From Sphingopyxis sp. (GTDB lineage Bacteria; Pseudomonadota; Alphaproteobacteria; Sphingomonadales; Sphingomonadaceae), in contig NZ_JAEMQX010000010.1 in the NCBI RefSeq assembly GCF_016463645.1, positions 1,165 through 65,164 of the forward strand: a stretch of DNA of 64,000 bases, given 5' to 3'. The notes under the pieces were generated by a model. It saw nothing but the letters and a program-made list of their open reading frames with translations. It did no database searches and was not told the origin of the DNA. Made by a program: the position numbers and the translations under genes. Below, in pieces: positions 12,920 to 44,357 of this stretch (the first letter of the stretch is position 1; each line of letters begins with the position of its first letter).

Positions 12920-15900
12920 TCGCGAAGATCATTCATGCCTCGGTCGCGGCACGCGGGCTCGTCGTTGCGGCGGCGCTGATCCTGACATTGCTCGGGATCG
13001 TCGCGGTGCGCACGACGCCGGTCGATGCCCTACCTGACCTGTCGGATGTCCAGGTCATCATCCGCACCACCTATGCGGGCCAGGCGCCGCGGATCGTCGA
13101 GGACCAGGTCACCTATCCGATCACGACAACGATGCTCTCGGTGCCGGGCGCGCGCGTGGTGCGCGGCTATAGCTTCGTCGGCGACAGCTTCGTCTATGTC
13201 CTGTTCGACGACGGCACCGATCCCTATTGGGCGCGCAGCCGCGTGCTCGAATATCTAAGCCAGGTGCAAAGCCGGCTTCCCGAGAGCGCACGCGCAAGCC
13301 TCGGCCCCGACGCGACCGGGGTCGGCTGGATCTATGAATATGCGCTCGTCGACAAGAGCGGCCGCCACGATCTCGCCGAGCTGCGCAGCCTTCAGGACTG
13401 GTTCCTCCGCTTCGAGCTCAAGTCGGTTCCCGGCGTCGCCGAGGTCGCGAGTATCGGCGGCATGGTGCGCCAATATCAGATCATCGTAGATCCACAGAAG
13501 CTCGCCGCCTTCGGCGTGACCGCATCCGAAGTGGCAGACGCCCTCAAGCGCGCCAACCAGGAAAGCGGCGGCGGCTCCCTCGAGCTCGCAGAGGCCGAAT
13601 ATATCGTCCGCGCGAGCGGCTATCTGAAATCGCTCGACGACTTCCGCGCGGTGCCCGTTCGCACCGCCGCCGGCGGCGTCTCGGTAACGGTCGGCGATGT
13701 CGCGACGGTCCAGATCGGCCCCGACACAAGGCGCGGCATCGCCGAACTCAACGGCAAGGGCGAAGTCGCGGGCGGCGTGATCGTGATGCGCGAAGGCAAG
13801 AATGCCCGCGAGGTCATCGACGGCGTCCGCACCAAGCTCGCCGAGCTCAAACGCAGCCTGCCGCCCGGCGTCGAGATCGTCACCACCTATGACCGTTCGG
13901 GGCTGATCGACCGCGCGGTCGACAATCTTACCTCGAAGCTCGTCGAAGAGTTCATCATCGTCGGGCTCGTCTGCGCGCTCTTCCTCTGGCACGCGCGCTC
14001 GGCACTGGTCGCGATCCTGACGCTGCCGCTCGGCATCCTCATCGCCTTCATCGTGATGCGGCTGCAGGGACTCAACGCCAATATATTGTCGCTCGGCGGC
14101 ATCGCCATCGCGGTCGGTGCGATGGTCGACGCTGCGGTGGTGATGATCGAAAATGCCCATAAGCATCTCGAACATTGGGAGCGCGATCATCCGGGCGAGG
14201 AACTGAAAGGCGCCGAACGCTGGCGCGTCATCACCGACGCCGCCGCCGAGGTTGGGCCCGCCCTCTTCCTCAGCCTCCTCATCATCACCTTCTCCTTCCT
14301 CCCCATCTTCACGCTCGAAGGCCAGGAGGGACGGCTCTTCTCGCCGCTCGCCTTCACCAAAACCTATGCGATGGCGGCCGCCGCGATCCTCTCGATCACG
14401 CTCATCCCGGTGCTGATGGGCTGGCTGATCCGCGGTAAGATACCCGCCGAACAGAGTAATCCGGTCAACCGCTGGCTGACCCGCATCTATCGCCCGGCAC
14501 TCGACTGGGTGCTCGAACGGCCGAAAAAAGCGCTCGTGATCGCCGGCCTCGTCTTCGCCACCAGCCTGTGGCCGATGACCCAGATCGGCGGCGAGTTCAT
14601 GCCGCAGATGCACGAAGGCGACCTCCTTTACATGCCCTCGGCGCTACCCGGCATCTCGGCCGCAAGGGCATCGAGCCTGCTCCAGCAGACGGACCGACTG
14701 ATCAAGACCGTGCCCGAGGTCGAGAGCGTGTTCGGCAAGGCGGGGCGGGCCGACAGCGCGACCGACCCCGCGCCGCTCGAGATGTTCGAGACGACGATCC
14801 GCTTCAAGCCGAAGGACCGTTGGCGCCCCGGCATGACCGAGGAGAAATTGATCGAGGAGCTCGACGCGCGGGTCCGGGTTCCGGGGCTCGCCAATTTCTG
14901 GATTCCCCCGATCCGCAATCGCATCGACATGCTTGCGACCGGGATCAAGAGCCCGGTCGGCATCAAGGTCGCGGGCTCGGATCTTGCCGGGATCGATCGC
15001 ACCGCCAAGCGCATCGAAGCGGTCGTCAAGACCGTACCCGGCGTAGCGTCGGCGCTGGCCGAGCGGCTGACTGGTGGGCGCTATATCGATGTCGACATCG
15101 ATCGCGCCGCCGCAGCACGCTACGGCCTCAATGTCGCCGACGTGCAAGCGATCGTCTCGGGCGCGATCGGCGGCGAGACGATCGGCCAGACGGTCGAGGG
15201 GCTCGCCCGCTATCCGATCAGCGTCCGCTACCCGCGCGAGCTGCGCGACAGTATCGGCGAGCTCGCGAGCCTTCCGGTCCTGACGCCGTCGCGCCAGCAG
15301 ATCACGCTCGGCACGGTGGCCAGAGTCAAGGTCAGCGACGGGCCGCCAATGCTGCGCAGCGAGAATGGCCGCCCGGTGACCTGGATCTACGTCGACAGCC
15401 GCGGCCGCGATTTGCAGGGCCTCGTGCAGGACATCCAGCGGGCGATCGCGCGCGATGTCGATCTGCCGCCCGGCGTCAGCGTTTCCTACACCGGGCAGTT
15501 CGAGTTCCTCGTTCGTGCGACCGAGCGGATGAAGGTCGTCGTGCCGGTCACGCTCGCGATCATCTTCCTGCTGCTCTACCTGACCTTCCGCCGCTGGGAC
15601 GAGGCGCTGCTCATCATGGCGACCCTGCCCTTTGCGCTCACCGGCGGGCTCTGGCTCCTCTATCTGCTTGGCTATAACCAGTCGGTCGCGAGCGCGGTCG
15701 GGTTCATCGCGCTTGCGGGCGTTGCCGCCGAGTTCGGGGTCGTCATGCTCATCTATCTCAAGCATGCGCTCGCCGATCGCAGCGACGGCCACATATTGGC
15801 CGCGGTTCGCGAAGGCGCGCTGCTCCGCGTCCGCCCGAAGGCGATGACCGTTGCGGTTATCCTCGCGGGCCTGTTCCCGATCCTCGTCGGGACCGGCACC

Positions 15901-16050
15901 GGCTCCGAAGTGATGAGCCGCATCGCCGCGCCGATGATCGGCGGCATGCTCACCGCGCCGCTGCTGTCGATGCTTATCATTCCCGCCGCCTATCTGCTGA
16001 TGCGAAGGCGTGCGGCTCATCCCGTCCAACCCGAAGGAGAAACGACATGA
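12916..16050 (+). CDS. cusA: CusA/SilA Cu/Ag RND permease
   Basis: [11 protein letters not shown]; [13 protein letters not shown]; [18 protein letters not shown]; [14 protein letters not shown]; MLATGIK. Confidence 0.95.
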
Positions 16051-18719: not shown

Positions 18720-20666
18720 ATGCCCCCCGCCCGCCGCTTTCTCTCTCTGCTGATCGCGCTCGCTGCAATCTGCGGCCTCGTCGTGCCGACGGCACAGGCC
18801 CGCACTGATGCCGGCGAAGTCCAGACCATCTGGCGCCTGCTGGACTATGTTGCGGTCGACTATGGTGGAGCGGTCTCGAATGGCGCGGTGACGAGCACGG
18901 TCGAATATGCCGAGATGACCGAGTTTTCCGCCACCGTTCGCAAGGGGATCGAAGCGCTTCCGGTATCCCCGGCGCGGGCTCGCCTTGTCAGTGAAGCGGG
19001 ACAACTCCAGACGGCGATCGCATCGAAGGCGGACCCCGGCAAGGTGGCTGGCCAGGCGCGCGGACTCGCGGCGGACCTCCTCGCCGCCTACCCTGTGCCC
19101 CTCGCGCCGCGCAACGCTCCAGATCCCCGGCGCGGAGCCCAAGTCTATCTGGAAAATTGCGCCAGCTGTCACGGCGCGCGCGGCGATGGCAATGGACCTC
19201 AGGCCAAGGGGCTCGACCCGGCACCTATCGATTTCACCGACGCCGGACGCGCTCGCAAGCGCAGTCTGTTCGCGCTCTATCAGGTGATAGGACAGGGGCT
19301 CGAAGGCACGTCCATGCCCAGTTTTGCCCATTTGCCCTCCGACGACCGCTGGGCGGTAGCAGCCTATGCCGGTGGATTTGCCTTTCGCGACGTCGCAGCC
19401 GGCCGGCGTGTCTGGAACCAGACCCCTGCGGCGCGCGAACTGGTCCCCGACCTGCAAGCCTTCACGAGTCTCAGCCCGGAAGTGCTTGGTCGTGGGCTGG
19501 GATCGGAGCAGGCCGACGCGCTTACCGCCTATTTGCGCTCAGATCCCCAAGCATTGACAACCGCTTCGCCCGCGACGCTTGCGGTTGCCCGTGACAAATT
19601 GGCGCAAAGCCTTGCCGCGTACCGCAAGGGAAATCGGAGCGAGGCAGAGCGTCTCGCGCTGTCCGCCTATCTCGACGGTTTCGAACCGATTGAGCCGATC
19701 CTGACGACGCGCGATTCCGCCCTTATGGCGCAAATCGAATCCGCGATGTCCGATTATCGCGTGTCCATCGCGCGAGGTGTGCCGGTCGATGCGGTCGCGG
19801 GTAAAGCCGCCGCAGTCGAAACCCTTTTCGCCGATGCCGAAGCTGCACTGTCTCCCGATGCAGCCAGCGACGCATCGACCTTTGTCGGGGCGCTTACCAT
19901 CTTGCTGCGCGAGGGTCTCGAAGCGCTTCTGATCATCGTGGCGATGATCGCCTTCTTGCGAAAGGCCGAACGGCCTGAGGTCCTACCCTATGTCCATGGC
20001 GGCTGGATCGCAGCCCTGGCAGCCGGCGGCGCAACCTGGGCAGTCGCGACCTATGCAATCTCGATCAGCGGAGCGAACCGCGAGTTGACAGAGGGATTTG
20101 GCTCGCTTTTCGCCGCAGTCGTTCTCGTCTGGGTCGGCATCTGGATGCACGGAAAGTCACATGCGGAGAGCTGGCAGCGCTATATTCGCGAAGCGATGGG
20201 CAAAGCGCTTTCACGTCGCTCGGCCTGGTTCCTGTTCGGGCTCGCTTTCCTCGTGGTCTATCGGGAAGTCTTTGAGACCATCCTGTTTTTCGCAGCTCTC
20301 GCCGCGCAAGGAAGCCGCAGCGCGATCGCCGCCGGAGCCGGAACCGCAGTGGTGATCCTGGCAGCAATCGCATGGGTCATGCTTCGTTACAGCCGGGTCC
20401 TGCCGATCGGAAGATTTTTCGCTTACAGCTCTTCGCTCATCGCTATCCTCGCGGTTGTCCTGGCCGGCAAGGGCGCGGGCGCGCTACAGGAAGCCGGCCT
20501 CCTCGGCATCACCCCGCTAGCTCATTTTCCCCGCTTCCCGGCGATGGGGATATTTCCTTCGCTCGAACCGTTGTTGCTCCAGCTTCTCGCGCTTGCAATC
20601 CTCTGGATCGGCTATCGTTACAACAGTCGGCAACATCGCCGCATCGAGACAGCGCCCGGTCGATGA
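18720..20666 (+). CDS. Cytochrome c / FTR1 permease fusion (PbrT-like)
   Basis: CASCH heme motif; ILLREGLEA and VYREVFET FTR1 REGxE motifs. Confidence 0.9.
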   Translation: MPPARRFLSLLIALAAICGLVVPTAQARTDAGEVQTIWRLLDYVAVDYGGAVSNGAVTSTVEYAEMTEFSATVRKGIEALPVSPARARLVSEAGQLQTAIASKADPGKVAGQARGLAADLLAAYPVPLAPRNAPDPRRGAQVYLENCASCHGARGDGNGPQAKGLDPAPIDFTDAGRARKRSLFALYQVIGQGLEGTSMPSFAHLPSDDRWAVAAYAGGFAFRDVAAGRRVWNQTPAARELVPDLQAFTSLSPEVLGRGLGSEQADALTAYLRSDPQALTTASPATLAVARDKLAQSLAAYRKGNRSEAERLALSAYLDGFEPIEPILTTRDSALMAQIESAMSDYRVSIARGVPVDAVAGKAAAVETLFADAEAALSPDAASDASTFVGALTILLREGLEALLIIVAMIAFLRKAERPEVLPYVHGGWIAALAAGGATWAVATYAISISGANRELTEGFGSLFAAVVLVWVGIWMHGKSHAESWQRYIREAMGKALSRRSAWFLFGLAFLVVYREVFETILFFAALAAQGSRSAIAAGAGTAVVILAAIAWVMLRYSRVLPIGRFFAYSSSLIAILAVVLAGKGAGALQEAGLLGITPLAHFPRFPAMGIFPSLEPLLLQLLALAILWIGYRYNSRQHRRIETAPGR

Positions 20667-27508: not shown

Positions 27509-30049
27509 TCAGCCCATGCTGCGATCGCGATAGGCGAGCAGGCGAAGCGCGTTGGCGACGACGACGAGGGTCGAGCCTTCGTGCGCCGCGACCGCCGCAC
27601 CGATTCCGAGTCCGAAGATCGTCGCCGGCACGAGGACCACGACGACGCCGAGGCTGACCACCAGATTCTGGCGGATGATGCGGCGCGTCTGGCGGCTAAG
27701 TCCGATCGCGAACGGCAGATGAGCGAGGTCATCGGCCATCAGCGCGACGTCGGCGGTTTCGAGGGCAACATCGGACCCCGCGGCGCCCATCGCGATCCCG
27801 ACGGTGGCGCTCGCCATCGCCGGTGCGTCATTGACGCCGTCACCGACCATGGCGACCGGCTGCTGCGCCTTGAGGTCGCGAATGGCGTCGACCTTCTGAT
27901 CGGGCATCAGGTCGCCCCAGGCCTCGTCGATCCCGACCTCGGCGGCAATCGATTCCGCGACCTTCTGGTGATCGCCCGAAATCATGATCATCCGGCCGAT
28001 GCCGAGCTCGCGCAGTTTGGCGATCGCGGTGCGCGCCGCTTCGCGCGGCGTGTCCATCAGACCGATCGCGCCAAGATCGCGGTCGCCCATACGAACGACC
28101 ATCGTCGTGCGGCCCTGCTCGCGGAGGCCGGCGATCGCAGCCGCCACTTCGCCGCCGATCGGCGCGATGCCGTCGGCACCGAACATTTCGGCCTTGCCGA
28201 TCAGGACGGTTTCGCCCTCGACCTTTGCCGTGACGCCGCGACCCGTCAGGCTGTTAAGGTCGTCCGCCACCGGTACGCGCGTCGACGTCAGCATGGCCTC
28301 GCCATCGCGCGCGATGGCAGCGGCAAGCGGATGATCGCTCAGCCGCTCGACCGCCACCGCGATCCGCAGCAGTTCCTCCTTCGGCACGCCGCTGGCCGGC
28401 AGGACGTCGGTGATGCGCGGCTTTCCTTCGGTGAGCGTTCCCGTCTTGTCGAACGCCAGCGCGGTCAGCGAGCCGAGATTTTCGAGCGGGCCACCGCCTT
28501 TGACCAGCACGCCGCCGCGCGCCGCACGCGCAACGCCCGACAGGACGGCACTCGGCGTCGCGATCGCGAGCGCGCACGGGCTTGCCGCGACAAGGACCGC
28601 CATGGCGCGATAGAAGCTGTCGCGGAACGGCTCGTCGACAACGACCCAGGCGAAGAGCAGGACGAACACAAGCGCGAGCACGCTCGGCACGAAGATGCGC
28701 TCGAACTTGTCGGTGAAGCGCTGGGTCGGCGATTTCTGCGTTTCCGCCTCGCTCACCATCTTCACGACCTTAGCGAGCGTGGTATCGGCCGCAAGACGGG
28801 TTACCGCGATCTCGATCGCGCCATAGCCGTTGATGGTGCCCGCGAAGACGCGATATTTTGCGTCGAGTGCATCGGGCTTTGCCGCGGCCTGCGCACGATC
28901 GGCCACCGGTTCCTTGTCGACGGGGACGCTCTCGCCGGTCACCGGAGCCTGATCTATCGCCGTGCGGCCAACGACGACGAAGCCGTCGGCGGCAAGACGC
29001 TCGTTGGGCTTGACGATGACGGTGTCGCCAATCGCCAGCTGCTCGACCGGGACTTCGCGAGCCGTCCCGTCGGCATCCTTCACCGTCGCGGTCTGCGGCG
29101 CCAGCTCCGCAAGCGCCTCGATTGCGCGCTTGGCGCGGCCCATGGCATAATGTTCGAGCGCATGGCCGAGGCTGAAGAGGAAGAGGAGCAGCGCGCCTTC
29201 GGCCCACGCACCAAGCGCGGCAGCGCCGGCCGCGGCGACGAGCATCAGCGTGTCGATCTCGAAGCGCTTGAGCTTCAGATTCTCGATGGCCTCGCGGACA
29301 GTGAACCAGCCACCGAAGCCATAAGCGGCAATATAGAATGCGAGCGGCACCCACTCCGGCGCCGCGGCGAGCTTCTCGATCGCAAAGCCGATGCCGAGGA
29401 CGAGACCGCACAGCAGCGCGAAGATCAGCTCGGTCCGCTCGCCGAAGATGCCGCCATGATCATGGCCATGGTCGTGGCTATCCTCGCCCGTATGGCCATG
29501 TTTGTGATCTGGCCCATGCGCGTGATCCGGACCATGGTCATGGCCATCATCGCCATGTTGGTGGGCGGCTTGTGCCGGGGCAGCCGCGGCGACGGCAGTC
29601 GATTTCTGAGTGACGCCCATATCCGAGAGTGTCTTTCTGATCATTTCGATGGAGGTCTCCGAGCGCTGGAACTCGGCGCGCAGCGTACCGGCGGCGCCGA
29701 CTTCGGCCTCGATCACGCCCGGCATTTCGCGAAGCTTCAGTCCGATCGTCCGCGCGCGACGGGCGTGGCCGACGCCTTCGAGGTCATCCCAGAAGAGATG
29801 CTGATACTGGCCGGTGAGCTCGGCACCGGCGCTGCGCGCGAGCTGCCGCACGCGTTCGAGCGGGAGAATATCCGGACGGTAATGGATGCAGAGCTGTGGC
29901 GGCGAACCGTCGCTTGAGCGGACAACATGGACCTTGTCGACGCCTTCGCGTCCTTCGAGTTCGCTCGTCAGGCGCGCGACGCAGCGGTCGGCGGTATCGG
30001 CGACTTCGGGGAGGAGAAGCGGAATATCGAGCCGCAACTGGTCACTCAT
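27509..30049 (-). CDS. czcP: P1B-4 Zn/Cd/Co ATPase, CzcP-like, with His-rich N-terminal extension
   Basis: SPC in the TM site; HEGST in the last TM; DKTGTLT; SDHP; His-rich linker HQHGDDGHDHGPDHAHGPDHKHGH. Confidence 0.85.
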   Translation of the reverse strand: MSDQLRLDIPLLLPEVADTADRCVARLTSELEGREGVDKVHVVRSSDGSPPQLCIHYRPDILPLERVRQLARSAGAELTGQYQHLFWDDLEGVGHARRARTIGLKLREMPGVIEAEVGAAGTLRAEFQRSETSIEMIRKTLSDMGVTQKSTAVAAAAPAQAAHQHGDDGHDHGPDHAHGPDHKHGHTGEDSHDHGHDHGGIFGERTELIFALLCGLVLGIGFAIEKLAAAPEWVPLAFYIAAYGFGGWFTVREAIENLKLKRFEIDTLMLVAAAGAAALGAWAEGALLLFLFSLGHALEHYAMGRAKRAIEALAELAPQTATVKDADGTAREVPVEQLAIGDTVIVKPNERLAADGFVVVGRTAIDQAPVTGESVPVDKEPVADRAQAAAKPDALDAKYRVFAGTINGYGAIEIAVTRLAADTTLAKVVKMVSEAETQKSPTQRFTDKFERIFVPSVLALVFVLLFAWVVVDEPFRDSFYRAMAVLVAASPCALAIATPSAVLSGVARAARGGVLVKGGGPLENLGSLTALAFDKTGTLTEGKPRITDVLPASGVPKEELLRIAVAVERLSDHPLAAAIARDGEAMLTSTRVPVADDLNSLTGRGVTAKVEGETVLIGKAEMFGADGIAPIGGEVAAAIAGLREQGRTTMVVRMGDRDLGAIGLMDTPREAARTAIAKLRELGIGRMIMISGDHQKVAESIAAEVGIDEAWGDLMPDQKVDAIRDLKAQQPVAMVGDGVNDAPAMASATVGIAMGAAGSDVALETADVALMADDLAHLPFAIGLSRQTRRIIRQNLVVSLGVVVVLVPATIFGLGIGAAVAAHEGSTLVVVANALRLLAYRDRSMG

Positions 30050-31148: not shown

Positions 31149-34100
31149 CTATTCCGTGACCGGCTGGACCGCCGACTCCGCTTTTCGCTTGAGGAACTTC
31201 GGCTGCCAGTTCGCCCCGAGGACGACTTTTGCGATCGCGGGGAGAACGAGCAGCGTCAGGATGGTCGCCGCGATGAGACCGCCGATGACGGTCGTCGCGA
31301 GAGGCTTCTGCACCTCGGCACCCGTGCCGGTCGCGATCGCCATCGGCACGAAGCCGATCGCGGGCACGAAGCCGGTCATGATCACCGCACGCATCTTCTC
31401 GGTCATGCCCTCGCGGATTGCCTCCGTGAGCGGGACATCATTCTCGAGCCGTTCGCGGATCGCCGTCATGACGACGAGACCGTTGAGCACCGCGACGCCG
31501 GCAAGGCAGATGAAGCCCACCGCCGCCGACACCGAGAAGTTGATGCCCGTAAGCGCGAGAGTGAACACCCCGCCCGCGAGCCCAAGCGGCACGGCGAGGA
31601 ACACGGCGGTCGCGCGCCCGAACGTGCCGAGCGCCATGTAAAGCAGGATGAAGATGCCCGCGAAGCAGAGCGGCACCACGATCGAGAGCCGCTGCGATGC
31701 GGCCTGCAGACTTTCGAACTGCCCGCCCCATTCGAGGTAATAGCCCGCCGGAAGCTTCACATTGGCGATCTTCGCCTGCGCTTCGGCCACGAAGGATCCC
31801 GCATCGCGGCCTTCGAGGTTCACCTGCACGACGACGCGCCGCTTGCCATTTTCGCGGCTGATCTGGTTGAGCCCTTCGGTCAGCCGGATCTGCGCCACCT
31901 GGGCGAGCGGTATCTGTCCGCGATTGCCGCCCTCGGAGGGCAGCAACACGGGCAGCGCGCGGATGTCGTCGAGATTGACCCGGGTCGCGTCGGGGACGCG
32001 AACCGTGATGTCGAAGCGCCTGTCGCCCTCATAGAGCAGGCCGGATTCCCGCCCGCCGAGCGCCGCCGACACCGTATCGGCAACCTCCTGTACCGAGAGA
32101 CCGTAGCGCGCGATCGCATTGCGATCGAGCTTCACGTCGAGCGTCGGAGCGCCGCCCACTTGGTCGGCCTTGACGCTGCCCGCACCCGGTATGCCCTGGA
32201 GCACGCGCACCATCTCGTTCGCCGCGAGCGACATCTTGTCGAGGTCGTCCCCGTAGAGCTTGATGGCCACGTCGCCGCGAACGCCCGCGATCAGTTCGTT
32301 GAAACGAAGCTGGATCGGCTGGCTGACTTCATAAAGCTGGCCGAGCTGGCCGCCAGCGGCTTTCTCGATACGCTCGACGACATCGGCCTTCGAATCGACA
32401 CCTGCCGGCCACTGATCCTGGGGTTTCAGGATCACGAAACCGTCGGAGATGTTCGGCGGCATCGGGTCGGTCGCCACCTCGGCCGTACCCGTCTTCGAAA
32501 ACATCAGCTCGACTTCGGGCAGGCTCGAGATCGCCGTCTCGACGTTGCGCTGCATGACCAGAGACTGTTCGAGGCTCACCGAAGGCACGCGCGTCGAGGC
32601 AAGCGCCATATTCTTCTCGTCGAGCTGCGGAATGAATTCCGAGCCGAGCAGTCCGAACGCCGGGATCGCAAGGACGAAGAAGGCAAAGCCGCCGGCGATG
32701 AAAGCCCACGGCTTGGCGAGCGCCTTGTCGAGCAAGGGCAGGTAGCGCTCCTTCGACTTGCGGATCGCCCAGACTTCCTTCTCGGCAACCTTGCCGCGAA
32801 TCATCAGCGCGACAAGCGCCGGAACCAGGGTGATCGCGAGAATGAAGGCCGCAACGAGCGCGAGCATGATGGTGATGGCCATCGGCGAGAAGGTCTTCCC
32901 CTCGACGCCCGTAAACATCAGCAACGGCGCGAAGGCCAGTAGGATGATCGCCTGGCCGAAGACGGTCGGTTTGATCATCTCCTGGCTCGCGCGCATCGTC
33001 TCCTCGAGACGTTCGCGAAGGTTGAGCAATCTCCCTTCATGCTCCTGCCGGTGCGCCAGTCTGGCGAGGCAGTTTTCGATGATGATCACCGCCCCGTCGA
33101 CGATCAGACCGAAGTCGAGCGCGCCGAGGCTCATCAGGTTACCGGGGACCCGGAAGGCGTTCATGCCCATCGCCATCATCAGGAAGGAGAAGGGAATGAC
33201 GAGCACCGCGATGATCGCGGCGCGCCAGTTGCCGAGCAGGAAGAAGAGCGCGGCCGCTACGAGCAGCGCGCCTTCGGTGAGGTTCTTTTCAACCGTGCCG
33301 ACGGTTGCGTTCACGAGCTTGGCGCGGTCGAGTACCACCTTCACTTCGACGCCGGGCGGCAGGGTCTTCGACACCTGCGCGATCTTCGCCGAAACATCCT
33401 CCGCAACAGTGCGGCTGTTCTGCCCGATCAGCATGAGCACGGTCCCGATGACCGCCTCCTTGCCGTTCATGCTGCCCGCACCGGTTCTGAGGTCGCCGCC
33501 GATCTTCACATTGGCGAGCTGTCCAACCGTCACGGGCACGCCGCCGCGCGTCGCGACGACGGCGTTGCGGATTTCGTCGACCGAGCGGACGCGTGCATCG
33601 ACGCGCACGAGATAGGCCTCGCCTGCCCGGTTATAGTAGTTGGCACCGACCGCGAGGTTGGCGCGTTCAAGGGCTTCGCCCAGTTCGCTATAGGAAATGC
33701 CGTAGCTGGTGAGGCGGGTCGGATCGGGTTCGACCACGAAGGTCTTGGCATAGCCGCCGATCGAGTCGACGCCGGCGACGCCGCCGACCGACTTCAATTG
33801 CGGGCTGACGATCCAGTCCTGGACCGTGCGAAGATAGCCCGATTTGGCGATCTCGTCGGTGAGGATATCGCCCTCGGGGGTCAGATAGCTGCCGTCGGGT
33901 TGCCAACCTGGTTGGCCCGCGACCTTCTTGGCGCCCTTCCCGTCGGGATTTTTGTAGCCGACGGTGTACATGACGACCTCGCCGAGACCCGTCGTGACGG
34001 GACCGATCTGCGGCTGGGCCCCGTCGGGAAGATTCTCGCCCGCCTGGAGAAGCCGTTCGCCCACCTGCTGGCGCGCGAAATAGAGGTCGGTTTCATCGGT

Positions 34101-34391
34101 GAAGATTGCCGTCACCTGGCTGAAGCCGTTGCGCGAGATCGAGCGTGTCGTCTCGAGCCCCGGAATGCCGGCGAGCGAGATTTCGATCGGATAGGTTACG
34201 AGCTTCTCGATTTCGACCGGCGAGAGACGCGGATCGATCGTGTTGATTTGCACCTGCTTGTTGGTGATGTCGGGAACCGCGTCGATCGGCAGCTTGGTGA
34301 GCTGCCATACGCCGAGTCCCGCGATCACGAGGAAGAGAAAGAGTACCGCCCAGCGCGCGCGGACGGATAGCGCCATCAGTTTCGCGATCAC
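31149..34391 (-). CDS. czcA: CzcA/NccA-type heavy-metal RND permease (system 1)
   Basis: [14 protein letters not shown]; [23 protein letters not shown]; EFIPQLDE; KPLATTVIGG; periplasmic insertion YKNPDG...GDIL. Confidence 0.93.
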   Translation of the reverse strand: MIAKLMALSVRARWAVLFLFLVIAGLGVWQLTKLPIDAVPDITNKQVQINTIDPRLSPVEIEKLVTYPIEISLAGIPGLETTRSISRNGFSQVTAIFTDETDLYFARQQVGERLLQAGENLPDGAQPQIGPVTTGLGEVVMYTVGYKNPDGKGAKKVAGQPGWQPDGSYLTPEGDILTDEIAKSGYLRTVQDWIVSPQLKSVGGVAGVDSIGGYAKTFVVEPDPTRLTSYGISYSELGEALERANLAVGANYYNRAGEAYLVRVDARVRSVDEIRNAVVATRGGVPVTVGQLANVKIGGDLRTGAGSMNGKEAVIGTVLMLIGQNSRTVAEDVSAKIAQVSKTLPPGVEVKVVLDRAKLVNATVGTVEKNLTEGALLVAAALFFLLGNWRAAIIAVLVIPFSFLMMAMGMNAFRVPGNLMSLGALDFGLIVDGAVIIIENCLARLAHRQEHEGRLLNLRERLEETMRASQEMIKPTVFGQAIILLAFAPLLMFTGVEGKTFSPMAITIMLALVAAFILAITLVPALVALMIRGKVAEKEVWAIRKSKERYLPLLDKALAKPWAFIAGGFAFFVLAIPAFGLLGSEFIPQLDEKNMALASTRVPSVSLEQSLVMQRNVETAISSLPEVELMFSKTGTAEVATDPMPPNISDGFVILKPQDQWPAGVDSKADVVERIEKAAGGQLGQLYEVSQPIQLRFNELIAGVRGDVAIKLYGDDLDKMSLAANEMVRVLQGIPGAGSVKADQVGGAPTLDVKLDRNAIARYGLSVQEVADTVSAALGGRESGLLYEGDRRFDITVRVPDATRVNLDDIRALPVLLPSEGGNRGQIPLAQVAQIRLTEGLNQISRENGKRRVVVQVNLEGRDAGSFVAEAQAKIANVKLPAGYYLEWGGQFESLQAASQRLSIVVPLCFAGIFILLYMALGTFGRATAVFLAVPLGLAGGVFTLALTGINFSVSAAVGFICLAGVAVLNGLVVMTAIRERLENDVPLTEAIREGMTEKMRAVIMTGFVPAIGFVPMAIATGTGAEVQKPLATTVIGGLIAATILTLLVLPAIAKVVLGANWQPKFLKRKAESAVQPVTE

Positions 34392-34394
34392 GGT

Positions 34395-35564
34395 TTATTC
34401 CTCCTCGCCCGCGCCCTTGCCGAGTTCGGCCTTGAGCAGGAATGCGTTCTTGGTCGCGACGATCTGGCCCGGCTTCAGCCCGGCGAGGATTTCGACACGG
34501 CCCGCGCTGCGCTGGCCGACGGTCACCTGCTGCGCGCGGAAGCCGTCCTTCGTGCGGACGAACACCACGTCGCGGCCTTCGAGCGTCTGGAGGGCTTCGT
34601 CCGCGATCACGATCCGGGCCGGCCCACCGGTTTCGGCGCCGCGGCTCGGAAGCAGCCGCACCCGGACCGCCAAGCCCGGCTGGAGCGCCCCGGGCACATC
34701 GAGCACGGCGGTTGCCGAGCGCGTGTCGCCCGACAGGCCGGGCGTGACGGCGCGCACGCGGGCATCGATCGTCCGTCCGTCGGGAAGTTCGATGATCGCA
34801 CGGTCTCCGGGCGAGAGCCGCTGGGCATCGGCCGGACCGACGGCGGCCTCGATCTGCACCTTGCTGGGATCGGCAACGCGGAACAATTCGGTTTCGGGCT
34901 GAACGAAGGCGCCAAGGCTGGCGTTCTCGGCCGTGATCCGTCCCGAGATCGGGCTTGCCACGATGACGCTGCTGCCATCGCGCGTGACCTGCGCGGCGCT
35001 CGCTGCGGCACGCGCGCGCTGCGCTTCGGCCGCGGCGGCCGCGGCTTCGGCTTGCGCCTGCTCATAGTCGACGCGCGCCGACACCTTCTGGTCGAACAGG
35101 GTCTTCTCGCGGTGGAGATTTTTCTGCGCGAGCGTCGAGCGCGCATCGGCGGCAATCCGTTCGGCCGCAATCTGGGCGGCGTCGCGGCTTTGCACGATCG
35201 CGATCGTCTCACCGGCGCTGACCGGATCGCCGAGCCGCTTGAAGAGACGGGTGACCGCGCCGCCCGCGCGGGCGGTGACGATCGCCTCGCCGCTCGGCGC
35301 GGCGGTAACGGTCGCTTGCGAGATGATTTCCGAACCGAGTCCGCCGGCGCCGATCGTCTCGACGCCGATCTCGGCGGCCTTGATCGCTTCGGGCGTGATG
35401 GCGAGGCTGCTCGGAAGGGCTTCGCTCGCCGCTTCCTTTTCGCCTTCGGCAGCCGGCGCGGCGGCCGGGTCGGCGGTGCAGCGTGCAACGCCGAAGCCCG
35501 TGACGGCAGCGAGTATCATGGCGCCCGCGACAGTGCCGAGGAGACGCTTGTCCTTGGTGATCAT
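34395..35564 (-). CDS. czcB: CzcB-type RND periplasmic adaptor (system 1)
   Basis: N-terminal TM; SPISGRI; ELFRVAD; GRVEILAGLKPG..VAT.NAFLLKAEL. Confidence 0.9.
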   Translation of the reverse strand: MITKDKRLLGTVAGAMILAAVTGFGVARCTADPAAAPAAEGEKEAASEALPSSLAITPEAIKAAEIGVETIGAGGLGSEIISQATVTAAPSGEAIVTARAGGAVTRLFKRLGDPVSAGETIAIVQSRDAAQIAAERIAADARSTLAQKNLHREKTLFDQKVSARVDYEQAQAEAAAAAAEAQRARAAASAAQVTRDGSSVIVASPISGRITAENASLGAFVQPETELFRVADPSKVQIEAAVGPADAQRLSPGDRAIIELPDGRTIDARVRAVTPGLSGDTRSATAVLDVPGALQPGLAVRVRLLPSRGAETGGPARIVIADEALQTLEGRDVVFVRTKDGFRAQQVTVGQRSAGRVEILAGLKPGQIVATKNAFLLKAELGKGAGEEE

Positions 35565-35673: not shown

Positions 35674-36981
35674 TCATGGCTGATGATCCGCATCGCCGTC
35701 GGCGGCTGCCTGGCGCGATAGGATGGCGCGGGCTTCGGCCCGGGCCTGGCGCGCCGCGATCAGTTCGGCCTGCGTTGCCGCATAGGCCTGCTGCGCGTCG
35801 ATATATTCGACGAGCGAGGACTTGCCGGCGCGGTAGCTGAGTTCGGCGAGCCGGACACCTTCGCGCGCCTGCTCGATGCCGCTACCCTCAAGCGCCGCGA
35901 GGCGGGCCTCTGCGGCTTCGAGTTCGGCCTGCGCATTGGCGATCTCCGCCTGAGCATTGACCACTGCATTCTCGCGCCGCGCAATGGCGGCGGCGACATC
36001 GGATTTGGCTGCCGAGATGTTGCCGCGGTTGCGGTCGAAGACGGGGAGCGGCACGGAAACATTGGCGATCAATGCGCGATCGCCGGTGTCGCGAAGCTGA
36101 CGCACCCCGAAGCCGACCGACGGATCGAGCCGGCCATCGGCGCGCTGCCCCTGGAGCCGCGCTTCAGCAATCAGCTTCTCGGTTTCTGCCAAGCGAACGT
36201 CGAGCGTCGCGAGCGAGTCCACCGTCTCCGGTGCCACCCACATATCGCCTTCCATCAACTCGGCAGGCGGGACCGAGCTTCCAAGGAGCGCCGCGAGCGA
36301 ACGCCGGGCGGTCCTTTCTTCGGCCTCGGCCGTGCGTAGCTCGGCGGTGGCCTGAACGAGAGCCGCATTGGCGCGGAACGCACGGAGCGGCGGCTCGTTG
36401 CCGGTATCGACCATGGCCTGTGCCACGCGGACGAGTTCGCGGGCACGCGCTTCATTTTCGCGTGCGAGCGCGAGGCTATCGCGGGCCGCGAGAGCGGTCG
36501 CGAACTGGTTGCGGACATCGAGCGCAAGATCTGCGCGTGCAATCTCCAACTTGTACTTCGCGGCCAGAAACTCGGCGTCGGCGAGCGTCATGCGCGACCG
36601 GCGCCGGCCCCCGATATCGAGACGCTGATTGACCGACACGGTCGTTTCGAGACCGTTCAGGCCCGAGTAGGGGCCGGTGCCTGCGAAATTCTCGACATCG
36701 ACATTGAGCGTCGGATTGTAGCGATAGCCCGCCTGACGCTGGCGACCGCGAGCGGCCTCCACTTCGGCTTCGGCGGCAACCACGCGCGGCGAGCGCGCGT
36801 CGGCTTCCTCCATCGCCTGCGCGAGGGACAATCGAGCGGGAAGCGGGCCGGTACGCACGGCCTCGCCTGCGGAAGAAGGCGGTCCCACCAGCTCCGTCGC
36901 TGCCGACTGGGCAGCGGCGGGCGCGGAATTTGAGCCTGCAACGAGCGCCACGAGACTCGCGGCGACAACTATGGATTTCAT
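35674..36981 (-). CDS. czcC: CzcC-type TolC-family outer membrane factor (system 1)
   Basis: YRYNPTL; VSVPLPVFDRNRGNI; YRAGKSSLVEYIDAQ. Confidence 0.9.
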   Translation of the reverse strand: MKSIVVAASLVALVAGSNSAPAAAQSAATELVGPPSSAGEAVRTGPLPARLSLAQAMEEADARSPRVVAAEAEVEAARGRQRQAGYRYNPTLNVDVENFAGTGPYSGLNGLETTVSVNQRLDIGGRRRSRMTLADAEFLAAKYKLEIARADLALDVRNQFATALAARDSLALARENEARARELVRVAQAMVDTGNEPPLRAFRANAALVQATAELRTAEAEERTARRSLAALLGSSVPPAELMEGDMWVAPETVDSLATLDVRLAETEKLIAEARLQGQRADGRLDPSVGFGVRQLRDTGDRALIANVSVPLPVFDRNRGNISAAKSDVAAAIARRENAVVNAQAEIANAQAELEAAEARLAALEGSGIEQAREGVRLAELSYRAGKSSLVEYIDAQQAYAATQAELIAARQARAEARAILSRQAAADGDADHQP

Positions 36982-37046
36982 GAAAAGGAGACTCCTGACG
37001 TTTCCAGGGAGAAGCGCACGCGAAGGGCACGCGCAGACCTAGAGCG

Positions 37047-37409
37047 TCAGGCGATTGGAGGGCGGAACGTCCCGATATAGGCGACGGGCGGCAAGGCGGC
37101 CGTCAGGATGCGCGTATGCGCTTCAGGGGCAGGCGTTTCGGTCGCTGCCGACAGCGATTCCGCCGGGACGCCCGAATGGTGACCGTGGCAGCCATGAGCG
37201 GCGGCAGGCACCTGCTGCTTTTCGCCGGGAGAGGATTTTTTCTTGTCGACTTCGGCGCCTTCGATCGCCGGTGCGGGAACGCAGCCGGCTTCGATCACAG
37301 CAACGAAAAGGCTCGCCTCGGCCCGATCCTCGGTCGCATGTGCGAGCGACCCCGCAACCGTTCCGGATGCAAGGAGAAGGGTCAGGAGGAAGAGGATCAC
37401 CCGTCGCAT
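37047..37409 (-). CDS. Small secreted His/Cys leader protein ending FRPPIA (DUF2946/CzcI-like)
   Basis: Signal peptide; HGCHGHH; immediately upstream of czcC1. Confidence 0.7.
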   Translation of the reverse strand: MRRVILFLLTLLLASGTVAGSLAHATEDRAEASLFVAVIEAGCVPAPAIEGAEVDKKKSSPGEKQQVPAAAHGCHGHHSGVPAESLSAATETPAPEAHTRILTAALPPVAYIGTFRPPIA

Positions 37410-37795: not shown

Positions 37796-37825
37796 CCTGC
37801 CCTGCACAAAAAAGGGGGAAAGAGG

Positions 37826-38279: not shown

Positions 38280-38618
38280 ATGTCCGGCGCTACCCTTCGC
38301 CTGTTGCTTGTGTTCATCCTGCTGCTCAGCGGGCTCCACAATGCTGCGCCGGCGATGGCGGGCATGACGCACCATGCGACGGATTCGCATCTTTCGCACC
38401 ATGTCGAGCCGGGCCATGCGTCGGACAAGGACACGCAAAAAGGTCAGCAGGACGCCGACCTCCACGGCAGTCACCATAATTGCCCGGTCGCATCCGATCA
38501 GGCCCTTTCGGGTCATGACGATCTGTCCTGTTTTTCCGGCGGCCTGCACTTTGCGTTGCCCGCGACGCGCCTCGCTTCGCGCGCGCTCGCACCGCCCCTG
38601 AACCCTCCCCTCGCCTGA
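38280..38618 (+). CDS. Small secreted His-rich leader protein ending LNPPLA (DUF2946/CzcI-like)
   Basis: Signal peptide; MTHH, HLSHH, HGSHHNCP; immediately upstream of czcC2. Confidence 0.7.
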   Translation: MSGATLRLLLVFILLLSGLHNAAPAMAGMTHHATDSHLSHHVEPGHASDKDTQKGQQDADLHGSHHNCPVASDQALSGHDDLSCFSGGLHFALPATRLASRALAPPLNPPLA

Positions 38619-38683
38619 ACGCCGCCTGCCGCGCGGCCCCTTTTCGGCCTGCGCTCAGTCGAATCGTTCAGGAGTGATCATTC

Positions 38684-39915
38684 ATGCATATCCATATGCG
38701 CGCCGCCCTGTTGGCCGGGGCTGCGCTGCTGGCGGGGTCCGTTTGGGCCCAGCCGCTAACGCTCGACCAGGCGGTCGAGCGGGCCATCGCTGCATCGCCC
38801 GAGCTTAGAGCGGGCGAAGCGGGGGTCGACGCCGCGCGCGCCGACCAGCTGCAAGCCCGCGTCCGTCCCAATCCGACCGTGTCGGTCGACATGGACAATG
38901 GCGTCGGGACGGGCGGCTATGGCCTGTTCCGGCAATCGGAACTCACCGTCACCTATTCGCAGCCGCTCGAACGCGGGGGCAAGCGCGAGGCGCGAATGGC
39001 GCTTGCCGAGCGCGGTGTCGTTCTCGCCGAGGCGCAGTGGCGGCTCGTCCGGCTCGACATCGCCCAGGAAGTGCAGCGCGCCTATATCGACGTCCAGATC
39101 GCCGAGCAGATGGTCTGGATCGCAGAGGATCGCGTCAAACTTGAAAAGGAGATGCGGACCGAAGCGATCAGGCGCGTGCGCGGCTACAAGGATCCGCTCT
39201 TCGTCGAGACGCGCGCCGATGCCCGCATTCTCGAAGCCGAACTGGCCCTGAAGGAAGCCCAGGCGAAGCGGCAGTCCGCACGCGCATTGCTCACCTCCTT
39301 CTGGGGCGGCACGCCTGACAGCCTCGTTATCGCCGAGGGGATCGAGAAACCCGATCCGCGCGATCCGCCGCTCGCCGAAGCCGACGCGGCGGTCTTCGAC
39401 GCCGCCGTCGACCGGGCCCGCGCGCAGGTCGTCGTCGAGCAGAGCCGTGCGCACCAGGACTATACGGTCTCGGGCGGCACGCGCTTTCTTCGCGAGACCA
39501 ATGATGTCGCCGTTCTTGGCGGCATCTCGATCCCGCTCGGACGGTTCGACCGCAACCAGGGCAATATCGCCCGGGCGCAGGCCGAACGGCGGCAGCTCGA
39601 GTTCCAATCCGAAGCGAGCCGGCTCGAGCGGCTGCGGCGCCTCGCGTCGCTGCGCGCCGATGCCGACGCCGCACGCGTCCGGGCCGAGGGCATCATGAAC
39701 GACGTCTATCCCAAGGCGGTGAAGACGCTCGGCCAGGTGCGCGAAGGCTATGCCCGCGGCGGGTTCCTGTTCGCCGACGTACAGGATGCCGCCGACGTCA
39801 TCATCCAGATCCAGGGTCAGTGGGCCGAGGCCATGACACGCTACCGCGATTTGCTCGCGGAGATCGATCGCCTGACCGGCCGCTTCGATGCGGCTCCCCT
39901 TGCGGAGAATATTCC

Positions 39916-39919: not shown

Positions 39920-44357
<4,438 letters not shown>

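What the first reader, a model, noticed from the sequence alone, without database searches (positions are those of the whole stretch)
36979..37409. The same leader-plus-SD-sequestering architecture in front of czcC1 on the opposite strand
Seen (minus strand): the leader ends CCT CCA ATC GCC TGA (RPPIA*). CCTGACG across the stop (37051-37045) pairs with CGTCAGG (37000-36994), which overlaps the SD AGGAG, with an inner GCGCG...GCGC hairpin. The two czc leaders share little visible protein similarity, yet both keep PPxA-stop, a CCTGA arm, an internal hairpin and TCAGGAG, and they differ at a paired position (AC/GT vs CG/CG), which looks like natural covariation. This one carries HGCHGHH as a candidate metal site. 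Inference: a conserved post-transcriptional switch rather than chance.
Basis: partly seen in the sequence, partly recalled or inferred. Interest (0 to 1): 0.75.

Follow-up and report, generated by a model that had tools for sequence, protein, structure and literature searches.

The report
Metal-sensor mini-gene gating a czc efflux pump
A small exported protein gene ends inside an RNA hairpin that hides the ribosome-binding site of the next gene, a heavy-metal efflux pump component; this matches the recently described CutF type of metal sensing by a stalled ribosome, so it is a well-supported new member of a known kind, not a new mechanism.

Summary
The 120-aa ORF 37047..37409(-) ends CCT CCA ATC GCC TGA. 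CCUGACG (37051-37045) pairs with CGUCAGG (37000-36994), which overlaps the SD AGGAG of the czcC-like gene. The whole hairpin is -30.3 kcal/mol (z -3.2).

It is not chance. In 91 distinct homologous junctions from three divergent families, the stop-to-SD helix is predicted with P>0.5 in 98-100% (median P 1.00), with median z -3.9. Inner hairpins differ in sequence but keep pairing: 93% of cells are paired against 71% in shuffles, with 233 compensatory cells against 67.

The last Ala codon is GCC in 84/84 cases, against a 39% background, which shows RNA-level selection.

The "leader" is a conserved exported protein. It has a signal peptide, an invariant CHGHH-type motif exactly 43 residues before a C-terminal PP, and then two residues and the stop. 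This fits the published rule for CutF-like proteins (Rhodobacter CutF, 2023), whose commonest neighbours are czcC/cusC-type genes.

Most likely mechanism, by analogy and untested here: periplasmic metal binding to the nascent chain prolongs ribosome pausing at PP. That melts the outer helix and exposes the czcC ribosome-binding site. The predicted opening cost falls from 12.8 to 5.6 kcal/mol.

Verdict: new member of a known kind. Interest 0.5.

The parts
37047..37409 (-). CutF-like upstream ORF (uORF1), 120 aa, stop included.
   Evidence: ORF list. There are 32 homologues with conserved motifs and 71 remote representatives. There is no Pfam hit; NCBIfam CopL_fam is matched only below its cut-off.
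37335..37409 (-). Predicted Sec signal peptide: MRRVILFLLTLLLASGTVAGSLAHA, with a basic N-terminus, a hydrophobic core and an AHA cleavage-type site.
   Evidence: Read from the sequence. It is conserved across the family. It is the only helix AlphaFold2 predicts, at residues 2-15. No signal-peptide predictor was available.
37176..37196 (-). HGCHGHH, the conserved candidate metal-binding motif (residues 72-78).
   Evidence: C74, H75, G76 and H77 are invariant or nearly so in 28 relatives of 23-54% identity. The Cys lies exactly 43 residues before the first C-terminal Pro in 50 + 69 distinct proteins.
37050..37067 (-). C-terminal FRPPIA. The PP codons CCT CCA are at 37061-37056, followed by two codons and then the stop.
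   Evidence: R116, P117 and P118 are invariant. PPxA-stop ends almost every family member. The first Pro codon is the rare CCU in 65/91 junctions, and the last codon is GCC in 84/84 Ala cases.
37045..37051 (-). 5' arm of the outer helix, CCUGACG. It contains the last two bases of the Ala codon and the UGA stop.
37003..37043 (-). Middle helix (UCUAGG/CCUGGA) and inner GC hairpin (GCGCGUGC-CCUUC-GCGUGCGC).
   Evidence: MFE and centroid. Every middle- and inner-helix pair shows compensatory changes across families.
36994..37000 (-). 3' arm of the outer helix, CGUCAGG. It overlaps the first three bases of the SD.
36992..36996 (-). Shine-Dalgarno AGGAG of czcC1. The ATG is at 36981-36979, after a 10-nt pyrimidine-rich spacer.
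   Evidence: Read from the sequence. The predicted cost of opening the RBS is 12.1 kcal/mol for the free RNA, and 4.1 kcal/mol when the first 6 nt of the 5' arm are occupied.
35674..36981 (-). czcC-like outer-membrane factor (OEP).
   Evidence: Pfam OEP, E 1.7e-44.
31149..35564 (-). Membrane-fusion protein (34395..35564) and HME-RND pump (31149..34391) of the same operon.
   Evidence: Pfam HlyD_D23. The pump is 51% identical to the second RND and carries the [16 protein letters not shown] motif typical of divalent-cation pumps (the motif meaning is from my own knowledge).
38280..38686 (+). Paralogous unit. uORF2 is at 38280..38618 and contains ...LHGSHHNCPV...NPPLA*. The hairpin pairs CCUGAACG (38614-38621) with CGUUCAGG (38665-38672). 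The SD is at 38670-38674 and the czcC2 ATG at 38684.
   Evidence: The distance from the motif Cys to PP is 41 residues in all 29 distinct type-2 proteins.

Best explanation
uORF1 is a CutF-like, co-translationally exported sensor peptide. The hairpin that runs from its stop codon to the czcC Shine-Dalgarno sequence is the switch it operates.

When no ribosome sits at the 3' end of uORF1, the outer helix (CCUGACG/CGUCAGG) is clamped by two further helices. Together they hold the czcC ribosome-binding site closed.

A ribosome paused on the conserved Pro-Pro pair has Pro117 in the P site and Pro118 in the A site. Its mRNA channel reaches about 15 nt downstream, which is exactly over CC-UGA-C, so the outer helix cannot form and the SD is free.

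In the model, the length of this pause is set by the nascent chain. The invariant CHGHH motif lies exactly 43 residues upstream of the P-site Pro, so it has just emerged on the periplasmic side of SecYEG. Metal binding there is proposed to prolong the pause, as copper does for CutF, and so raise translation of czcC (and probably czcBA) when periplasmic metal rises.

Status of each step:
- Shown here: the structure, its conservation and covariation, its fixed register with the stop codon and SD, the fixed 43-residue spacing, and synonymous-site selection.
- Inferred from the geometry: that a ribosome at the uORF end opens the RBS.
- Inferred by analogy with CutF only: pausing at PP and its dependence on metal.
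For: Structure:
- searches give the MFE folds for both window copies.
- 91 distinct junctions have median z -3.9, and P(stop-U:SD-A pair) exceeds 0.5 in 98-100% (median 1.00).
- in an anchored register, 86/91 junctions have at least 6 contiguous pairs. The position after the stop is C-G in 70, A-U in 12 and U-G in 5. Partner shuffling never reaches the observed pairing.
- 93.2% of cells are paired against 71.2% in shuffles and 33-47% in slid registers. There are 233 compensatory cells against 67.
- a family-1 model finds the paralogue as the only other hit in the window, although the adjacent OMFs are only 33% identical and the uORF proteins are not BLAST-similar.

RNA-level selection inside coding sequence:
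- The last Ala codon is GCC in 84/84 cases, against 39% in neighbouring genes and 51% (26 of 51) at the Ala six codons upstream of it.
- Non-Ala replacements keep xCC or GUC.
- The stop is UGA in 90/91 junctions.

Sensor-like protein:
- The signal peptide, CHGHH motif and RPP are invariant.
- There are no gaps from the motif to the C-terminus in 28 relatives of 23-54% identity, while the N-terminal part is full of indels.
- The Cys-to-Pro distance is 43 in 119 distinct type-1 proteins and 41 in 29 type-2 proteins.
- AlphaFold2 predicts no structure beyond the signal peptide and a 4-residue helix (residues 29-32) (pLDDT 56).

Energetics: the cost of opening the RBS falls from a median 12.8 to 5.6 kcal/mol when the first 6 nt are occupied.

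Precedent:
- CutF of R. capsulatus has a Sec signal, a CxxxC motif about 45 residues before a C-terminal PPP-R-L-stop, and a stem-loop shielding the cutO SD. Each part was shown to be needed by mutation (PMC9973294; bioRxiv 10.1101/2025.02.05.636593).
- OEP (CusC/CzcC) is the commonest neighbour of CutF-like genes.
Against: - There are no expression data. The RNA runs found are assembled contigs with flat depth and say nothing.
- PP followed by I/Q-A is not a known strong arrest motif. It is not RAPP/RGPP. CutF's own Pro-rich tail did not stall on its own in a reporter.
- The window protein does not reach any Pfam or NCBIfam threshold for DUF2946, CopL or CzcI.
- With the 5' arm blocked, the SD is predicted to re-pair weakly elsewhere. 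In family 1 this is CCUGG/UCAGG. Mean unpaired probability therefore hardly changes, and only the opening energy drops.
- Sense and antisense hairpins are equally stable, so energetics alone do not prove an RNA-level structure on this strand.
- C. metallidurans CzcI sits in the same genomic position and is reported to act as a periplasmic protein that damps the pump (PMC10127602). The mature product here could therefore have a job of its own.
Confidence: 0.6

Rival explanations
1. Constitutive translational coupling. The hairpin only ties czcC translation to uORF1 translation, because any terminating ribosome melts it. There is no metal-dependent pause. The small protein is a functional periplasmic partner of the pump, like CzcI, and the coupling fixes stoichiometry.
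For: - The 5' arm contains the stop codon, so every terminating ribosome must open it.
- CzcI, in the same position in C. metallidurans, is described as a periplasmic modulator of CzcCBA (PMC10127602).
- The czcI-czcC spacer of pMOL30 also folds strongly (-34.2 kcal/mol, z -4.0), although CzcI has no PP.
Against: - It does not explain why PP sits exactly two codons before the stop in nearly every member.
- It does not explain why the Cys motif is exactly 43 (or 41) residues upstream in 148 distinct proteins while the sequence between is free to vary.
- It does not explain the rare CCU codon at the first Pro.
- The mature part is predicted to be unstructured.
Confidence: 0.2
2. Transcription attenuator or intercistronic stabiliser. 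The hairpin plus the U-rich tail AGUCUCCUUUUC acts as a leaky intrinsic terminator or a processing and stability barrier. It would yield abundant uORF1-only transcripts and fewer czcCBA transcripts. A ribosome at the uORF end would act as an antiterminator.
For: - The terminator-like scan flags CCTGGAAACGTCAGG followed by AGTCTCCTTT.
- 17 of 19 family-1 junctions have at least 5 U in 8 nt just after the stem.
- In C. metallidurans both a monocistronic czcI message and a czcICBA message exist, and abundance falls from czcI to czcC.
Against: - The U tail is absent in family 2 (0/11) and uncommon in the third family (7/61), although the hairpin is conserved in both.
- The tail is interrupted by C and starts 2 nt after the stem.
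- This does not explain why the 3' arm must be the SD itself.
Confidence: 0.12
3. CruR-type logic. The ribosome pauses at the C-terminal motif in the absence of metal and protects the transcript from Rho. Metal relieves the pause and Rho terminates before czcC.
For: CruR is a related kind of uORF with a metal motif and a C-terminal Pro motif (PMC9426467; PMC12992588).
Against: - It would switch an efflux pump off when metal rises, which is the wrong sign for a resistance operon.
- The spacer is short (65 nt) and almost fully base-paired, which leaves no room for an unstructured C-rich Rho loading site. CruR's spacer is 162 nt.
- The motif is RPPI, not RAPP.
Confidence: 0.04
4. Chance, or by-product of composition. 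GCC-UGA and AGGAG happen to be complementary in a GC-rich genome, and GC-rich spacers fold anyway.
For: CCUGA/UCAGG is partly made of constrained elements: an Ala codon, the commonest stop, and the SD.
Against: - Dinucleotide-shuffle z scores are below -2 in 90 of 91 junctions.
- The UC 5' of AGG is not required for an SD, yet it is nearly invariant.
- Positions beyond CCUGA covary.
- The synonymous third base of the last codon is fixed.
- The other RND operons in the window lack the element.
Confidence: 0.02

Closest known systems
CutF and the cutF-cutO stem-loop of Rhodobacter capsulatus (Ozturk et al. 2021, 2023; preprint 2025)
   Same: - Small (118 aa against 120 aa) upstream ORF in an alphaproteobacterium.
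- Sec signal peptide.
- Cys/His metal motif about 45 residues (here 43) before a C-terminal proline repeat.
- The repeat is followed by two residues and the stop: PPP-R-L-stop against PP-I-A-stop.
- Short spacer with a stem-loop that shields the SD of the next gene.
- The target is a periplasmic or envelope metal-detoxifying system.
   Different: - No detectable sequence similarity; Pfam DUF2946 is not matched.
- The motif is CHGHH (His-rich, one Cys), not CxxxC.
- PP, not PPP.
- The target is the outer-membrane factor of a divalent-cation-type HME-RND pump, not a multicopper oxidase.
- The metal is unknown.
- Nothing has been tested experimentally here.
CruR (Bordetella pertussis bp2923, DUF2946)
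   Same: An upstream ORF that senses metal through the nascent chain, with a C-terminal Pro-containing arrest motif.
   Different: - CruR has an RAPP motif and a 162-nt spacer.
- It works by Rho-dependent termination.
- Copper relieves the arrest and represses an importer.
- Its signal peptide is not needed.
- Here the spacer is a 65-nt SD-sequestering hairpin ahead of an exporter.
CopL (Xanthomonas / Stenotrophomonas)
   Same: - A small Cys/His-rich ORF immediately upstream of copper-resistance genes that acts only in cis.
- NCBIfam CopL_fam gives below-threshold hits for uORF2 (E 0.011) and for 12 of 28 family-1 relatives (best E 1e-4).
   Different: - The hits are below the curated cut-off (40 bits).
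- The target genes are copAB.
- No stop-to-SD hairpin has been described for CopL, to my knowledge.
CzcI / CzcI2 of Cupriavidus metallidurans
   Same: - The same genomic position, immediately upstream of czcC.
- Similar size (115 aa), a signal peptide and a His/Cys-rich sequence.
- The spacer to czcC also folds stably.
   Different: - CzcI ends ARAPDRPQWQRLA with no PP (also stated in PMC9973294).
- The NCBIfam CzcI model scores 15.9 bits against a cut-off of 100.
- CzcI is reported to act as a periplasmic damper of the pump.
SecM-secA, VemP-secDF2, MifM-yidC2 monitoring substrates
   Same: An exported nascent chain with a C-terminal arrest region close to the stop. The stalled ribosome melts a hairpin that hides the SD of the next gene.
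   Different: Those systems sense translocon activity and regulate translocon components. Here the conserved extra feature is a metal-type motif at a fixed distance, and the target is an efflux pump.
Classical translational coupling by hairpin unfolding
   Same: The RBS of the distal gene is base-paired to the end of the proximal gene and is opened by the translating ribosome.
   Different: Classical coupling needs no conserved peptide. Here the peptide end, its distance to a metal motif and its codon choice are all conserved.

Membership tests
CutF-like proteins (rule of Ozturk et al. 2023, PMC9973294) | Protein shorter than 150 aa | tested here: met
   120 aa. uORF2 is 112 aa.
CutF-like proteins (rule of Ozturk et al. 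2023, PMC9973294) | [quoted passage not shown] | tested here: met
   The protein ends ...FRPPIA. PP is invariant in the family.
CutF-like proteins (rule of Ozturk et al. 2023, PMC9973294) | N-terminal Sec (SPI) signal peptide predicted by SignalP | tested here: inconclusive
   The N-terminus has MRR, a hydrophobic core and AHA, and is conserved. AF2 predicts a helix at residues 2-15. No signal-peptide predictor was available.
CutF-like proteins (rule of Ozturk et al. 2023, PMC9973294) | [quoted passage not shown] | tested here: met
   The spacer to czcC1 is 65 nt. The median is 65 nt in 91 junctions.
CutF-like proteins (rule of Ozturk et al. 2023, PMC9973294) | [quoted passage not shown] | tested here: met
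   HGCHGHH, with C74 and H75 invariant and G76 and H77 nearly so. Metal binding itself was not tested.
CutF mechanism | Stem-loop that shields the SD of the downstream gene | tested here: met
   Predicted, conserved and covarying. This is in silico only.
CutF mechanism | [quoted passage not shown] | not testable with these tools
   This needs genetics and reporter assays.
Pfam DUF2946 (PF11162) | Match to the family HMM above the gathering score | tested here: not met
   No hit for the window protein. Only 6 of 28 relatives hit, at E >= 0.028.
NCBIfam CopL_fam (NF033807) | Score at or above 40 bits | tested here: not met
   10.5 bits for uORF1 and 16.3 bits for uORF2. 12 of 28 relatives match below the cut-off.
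NCBIfam CzcI (NF045614) | Score at or above 100 bits | tested here: not met
   15.9 bits for uORF2 and none for uORF1.
RAPP/RGPP arrest peptides | C-terminal R-A/G-P-P motif | tested here: not met
   The motif is (F/L)RPP(I/Q)A in type 1 and (N/D/E/Q)PPxA in type 2.
Intrinsic (Rho-independent) terminator | GC-rich hairpin directly followed by a U tract, conserved with the hairpin | tested here: inconclusive
   Present in family 1 (17/19) but in 0/11 and 7/61 of the other two families.
Any Rfam family | Match to a curated covariance model | tested here: not met
   There was no hit at all inside 36979-37055 or 38610-38686. The only matches in 35000-40000 lie elsewhere and have E >= 3.1.

The most novel reading that the evidence does not exclude
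The family is a set of divalent-metal (Zn/Co/Cd/Ni-type) nascent-chain sensors built on a strict molecular ruler. The ruler is 43 residues in type 1 and 41 in type 2, from the liganding Cys to the P-site Pro. It places the motif at the periplasmic mouth of SecYEG at the instant the ribosome reaches PP.

The hairpin would do more than mask the SD. By pairing the stop codon directly to the SD, it puts the pausing or terminating ribosome next to the czcC start, so the same 30S subunit could be handed over. In family 1 the same helix would double as a ribosome-controlled attenuator.

That would make RND efflux induction a fast, purely translational response to periplasmic metal, with specificity encoded in the uORF. 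In this reading, two differently tuned copies sit back to back in this island, and a third, Cys-rich copy sits ahead of the cus-like operon.
Probability: 0.3. Interest if true: 0.7.

Novelty: new member of a known kind. Interest (0 to 1): 0.5.

Why it matters
Heavy-metal RND pumps are usually described as controlled by two-component systems, ECF sigma factors or MerR-type regulators. If the CutF principle also governs czcCBA-type operons, part of their induction happens at the ribosome, responds directly to periplasmic metal and needs no regulator gene.

The comparative data here add three things to the published CutF work:
- a base-resolved, covarying RNA structure for the efflux-pump class;
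- an exact, family-wide spacing rule between metal motif and pause site;
- synonymous-site evidence that the last codon is shaped by RNA pairing.

These give clear mutational targets. They also offer a way to annotate such uORFs, which are currently called hypothetical proteins or missed altogether. Swapping uORFs between the two divergent operons would test whether metal specificity travels with the peptide.

Tried and rejected
- **RNA-seq evidence.** 19 runs hold the sequence, but all are kept as assembled contigs. Depth is flat across coding and non-coding DNA, so nothing can be said about 3' ends or attenuation.
- **Plasmid search.** Near-identical DNA was not found in the plasmid collection.
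- **Profile search for more uORF relatives with genomic context.** It returned only the same two families. A broad alignment (A4) was too diverse for the locus finder, so I used a tighter sub-family (A5), which gave 80 metagenome loci.
- **Strand of the structure from energetics.** Sense and antisense hairpins are equally stable (42/91, p 0.68). I therefore dropped my early note that G-U pairs prove a sense-strand RNA. G-U outnumber A-C 91 to 27 on the CM-fitted alignment, but that alignment is biased towards G-U.
- **Unpaired probability of the SD with the 5' arm blocked.** It hardly changes (0.37 to 0.41) because weak alternative pairings appear. The informative quantity is the opening energy.
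- **Dispersed repeat or REP-like element.** Rejected, because the model hits only the two junctions in 64 kb.
- **Known riboswitch or Rfam motif.** None found.
- **Membership in DUF2946, CopL or CzcI.** Tested by HMM and not met.
Full report
**1. What is in the sequence**

On the minus strand, the ORF 37047..37409 encodes 120 residues and ends TTC CGC CCT CCA ATC GCC TGA. Sixty-five bases later the czcC-like outer-membrane factor starts (ATG 36981-36979; Pfam OEP, E 1.7e-44). It is followed by a membrane-fusion protein and an RND pump.

RNAfold gives one long three-tier hairpin as both MFE and centroid:
- CCUGACG (37051-37045) pairs with CGUCAGG (37000-36994);
- UCUAGG pairs with CCUGGA;
- GCGCGUGC pairs with GCGUGCGC.

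The energy is -30.3 kcal/mol, z -3.2 against dinucleotide shuffles. The 5' arm contains the last two bases of the Ala codon and the UGA stop. The 3' arm contains the first three bases of the SD AGGAG.

The divergently transcribed second operon has the same arrangement (uORF2 38280..38618, hairpin 38614-38672, czcC2 ATG 38684; -32.7 kcal/mol, z -2.95).

**2. Is it more than chance?**

I collected related junctions in three ways:
- 20 genome loci from a scan with the uORF1 family;
- 17 loci from look-ups of distant uORF1 homologues;
- 80 metagenome loci from a sub-family only 23-32% identical to uORF1.

The first set also contains uORF2-type junctions on the other strand. After removing duplicates there are 91 distinct junctions: 19 of family 1, 11 of family 2 and 61 of family 3. 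Nine of ten family-3 downstream genes that I translated are about 420-aa OMF-like proteins or a truncated OMF-like one, and three of four scanned are Pfam OEP.

The results on these junctions were:
- Median z is -3.9, and z is below -2 in 90 of 91. The ensemble probability of the specific pair between the stop-codon U and the SD A exceeds 0.5 in 98-100%, with a median of 1.00.
- In a fixed, ungapped register anchored on the stop codon and on GGAG, 86 of 91 have at least 6 contiguous pairs. Two of the five exceptions were mis-anchored by my script.
- The first position after the stop is C-G in 70, A-U in 12 and U-G in 5. The next is G-C in 45, C-G in 10, A-U in 9 and G-U in 6.
- Pairing each 5' arm with the 3' arm of a random other locus gives 197 +/- 7 paired cells at the four variable positions, against 266 observed. 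None of 5000 shuffles reached the observed value.
- A covariance model built only from family 1 finds the uORF2 junction as the only other hit in the 64 kb window (24.6 bits). It recovers 76 junctions in the loci, always at the expected place apart from one antisense echo of the same hairpin (L013, E 0.79).
- On that alignment, 93.2% of cells are paired against 71.2% in column shuffles and 33-47% in slid registers. Fourteen of 19 pairs have compensatory changes, and 233 cells are compensatory against 67 expected.
- The inner hairpins of the three families are unrelated in sequence but always present.

Two caveats apply. The sequences are related, so the shuffle counts are not probabilities. 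The CM alignment also leans towards the model.

**3. Selection at the RNA level inside the coding sequence**

- The last sense codon is GCC in all 84 junctions where the residue is Ala.
- The same loci use GCC for only 26 of 51 Ala codons six codons upstream of the last codon. Neighbouring window genes use GCC for 39% of Ala codons.
- The seven non-Ala endings are ACC, CCC or GUC, all of which keep pairing with GG.
- The stop is UGA in 90 of 91 junctions.

So the first two pairs of the outer helix are maintained at a synonymous site.

**4. What the "leader" is**

It is not a short leader peptide. uORF1 has 32 close homologues and 71 remote representatives. All are 100-130 aa and share these features:
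- a basic and hydrophobic N-terminus ending in an AHA-type site;
- a variable, indel-rich segment;
- an invariant CH(G)H(H) motif;
- a stretch that is free in sequence but fixed in length;
- (F/L)RPP(I/Q)A-stop at the C-terminus.

The Cys lies exactly 43 residues before the first C-terminal Pro in 50 distinct database proteins and 69 distinct metagenome proteins. In the uORF2 type (HxHHxCP...PPxA) the distance is exactly 41 in 29 proteins.

AlphaFold2 predicts nothing but the signal-peptide helix and a 4-residue helix at 29-32 (pLDDT 56, pTM 0.17, shallow alignment).

HMM libraries give only sub-threshold hits to CopL_fam, CzcI, DUF2946 and DUF6153.

**5. What is known**

The literature search led to an almost exact precedent. 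In Rhodobacter capsulatus the 118-aa CutF has four relevant features:
- a Sec signal;
[quoted passage not shown] Translation of cutF, its Sec-dependent export, the Cu motif and the Pro motif are all needed for Cu-induced CutO synthesis. [quoted passage not shown] EF-P normally relieves the pause and Cu overrides it (PMC9973294; bioRxiv 10.1101/2025.02.05.636593).

The same authors defined CutF-like proteins by four criteria: under 150 aa, PP in the last 15 residues, a signal peptide, and a co-oriented downstream gene. They found 5,334 of them. The commonest neighbour is an OEP annotated CusC/CzcC/SilC. They measured spacer lengths but did not describe RNA structures for that class.

Related cases:
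- CruR of Bordetella has an RAPP arrest motif and works through Rho termination.
- RAPP/RGPP peptides upstream of metal genes have been catalogued (PMC12992588).
- C. metallidurans CzcI sits in the same position but lacks PP. It is described as a periplasmic damper of CzcCBA, and both a monocistronic czcI message and a czcICBA message exist (PMC10127602).

**6. Mechanism proposed**

The geometry fits the CutF model closely. With Pro117 in the P site and Pro118 in the A site, the mRNA channel covers about 15 nt from the P-site codon. That spans codons 118-120, the stop and about one more base, which is the CCUGAC of the 5' arm.

Blocking those six bases in the folding calculation lowers the predicted cost of opening the czcC ribosome-binding site (SD-3 to AUG+13):
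- from 12.1 to 4.1 kcal/mol for this locus;
- from a median 12.8 to 5.6 kcal/mol over 91 junctions.

A ribosome at the stop codon has a similar effect (6.6 kcal/mol).

The 43-residue ruler is about what is needed to fill the exit tunnel and cross SecYEG, as argued for CutF. It would therefore place the CHGHH motif at the periplasmic side when the ribosome is on PP.

I consider the RNA structure and its coupling geometry established in silico. Opening by the ribosome is a strong inference. Metal-dependent pausing is an inference by analogy.

The pump carries the [16 protein letters not shown] motif. From my own knowledge, this motif marks divalent-cation HME-RND pumps rather than Cus-type pumps. 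The metal sensed may therefore be Zn, Co, Cd or Ni rather than Cu, but this is unknown.

**7. Rivals**

- **Constitutive coupling with a functional periplasmic product.** This remains possible (0.2), but it leaves the ruler, the PP-x-x-stop rule and the rare CCU codon unexplained.
- **Attenuator or stability role.** This is plausible for family 1 only. A U-rich tail follows the stem in 17/19 family-1 junctions, but in 0/11 and 7/61 of the other families.
- **CruR-type Rho logic.** This has the wrong sign for an exporter and no room for a Rho loading site.
- **Chance.** Excluded as far as computation allows.

**8. Verdict**

The element is a new, well-documented member of the CutF-like class rather than a new kind of system. 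What is new is the following:
- the covarying stop-to-SD hairpin for czc-type pumps;
- the exact spacing rule;
- the synonymous-site signal;
- the presence of two, probably three, such units in one metal-resistance island.

Interest is 0.5.

Noticed in passing
window 9680-10145 (+): This looks like a third unit of the same kind. ORF 9680..10072 (130 aa) has a hydrophobic N-terminus, is Cys-rich, and ends PEPDPPLLPG*. Its UGA stop lies in the 5' arm of a hairpin of -38.5 kcal/mol (z -4.0). The 3' arm of that hairpin covers the GAGGA SD of an 87-aa ORF (10139..10402), which sits ahead of a cus-like OEP/MFP/RND operon (10467..16050). The family-1 covariance model did not detect it.
   Followed up: partly
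window 37056-37061 and homologous loci: The first Pro codon of the PP pair is the rare CCU in 65 of 91 distinct junctions across all three families, against 6% of Pro codons in neighbouring genes. The second Pro codon avoids CCG (16% against 62%). Together they often spell CCUCC, an anti-SD-like string. I have no explanation; slow decoding or an alternative pairing are possibilities.
   Followed up: partly
window 36982-37008 (-): When the 5' arm and the middle helix are blocked, family 1 can form an alternative small hairpin, CCUGG-AAACG-UCAGG. This hairpin still covers the SD and is followed by UCUCCUUUUC, so it looks like a terminator. The U-rich tail is specific to family 1 (17/19).
   Followed up: partly
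L118 45177-45610 (C. metallidurans pMOL30 czcI-czcC): CzcI ends ARAPDRPQWQRLA* with no PP. Its 75-nt spacer to czcC nevertheless folds to -34.2 kcal/mol (z -4.0), and in the MFE the czcI stop region pairs with the czcC start-codon region. This is a single sequence, and conservation was not examined.
   Followed up: partly
L042 1144-1544: A family-3 uORF with the same stop-to-SD hairpin (CCUGACAA/UUGUCAGG) sits ahead of a 192-aa cytochrome c'-like lipoprotein instead of an OEP. The module is therefore not restricted to efflux operons.
   Followed up: partly
window 37787-38230 (+): A DUF3703 gene (E 3e-33) lies directly upstream of uORF2 on the same strand. The same DUF3703-uORF-OEP order recurs in L028/L029. 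Its role is unknown.
   Followed up: no
window 1-64000: The window is a dense metal-resistance island from a Sphingopyxis-like genome; the closest locus is S. soli BL03. It carries two P-type ATPases (6690..9011 and 27509..30049), four RND pumps (12916, 24285, 31149, 41070) and a cytochrome c-FTR1 fusion (18720..20666). In relatives, a MerR/MerT pair is nearby (L035).
   Followed up: partly
L098 1706-1775: This is the only junction with a UAA stop. The resulting A-C mismatch in the outer helix comes with a longer helix (AAUUCC/GGAAUU), as if compensating.
   Followed up: no
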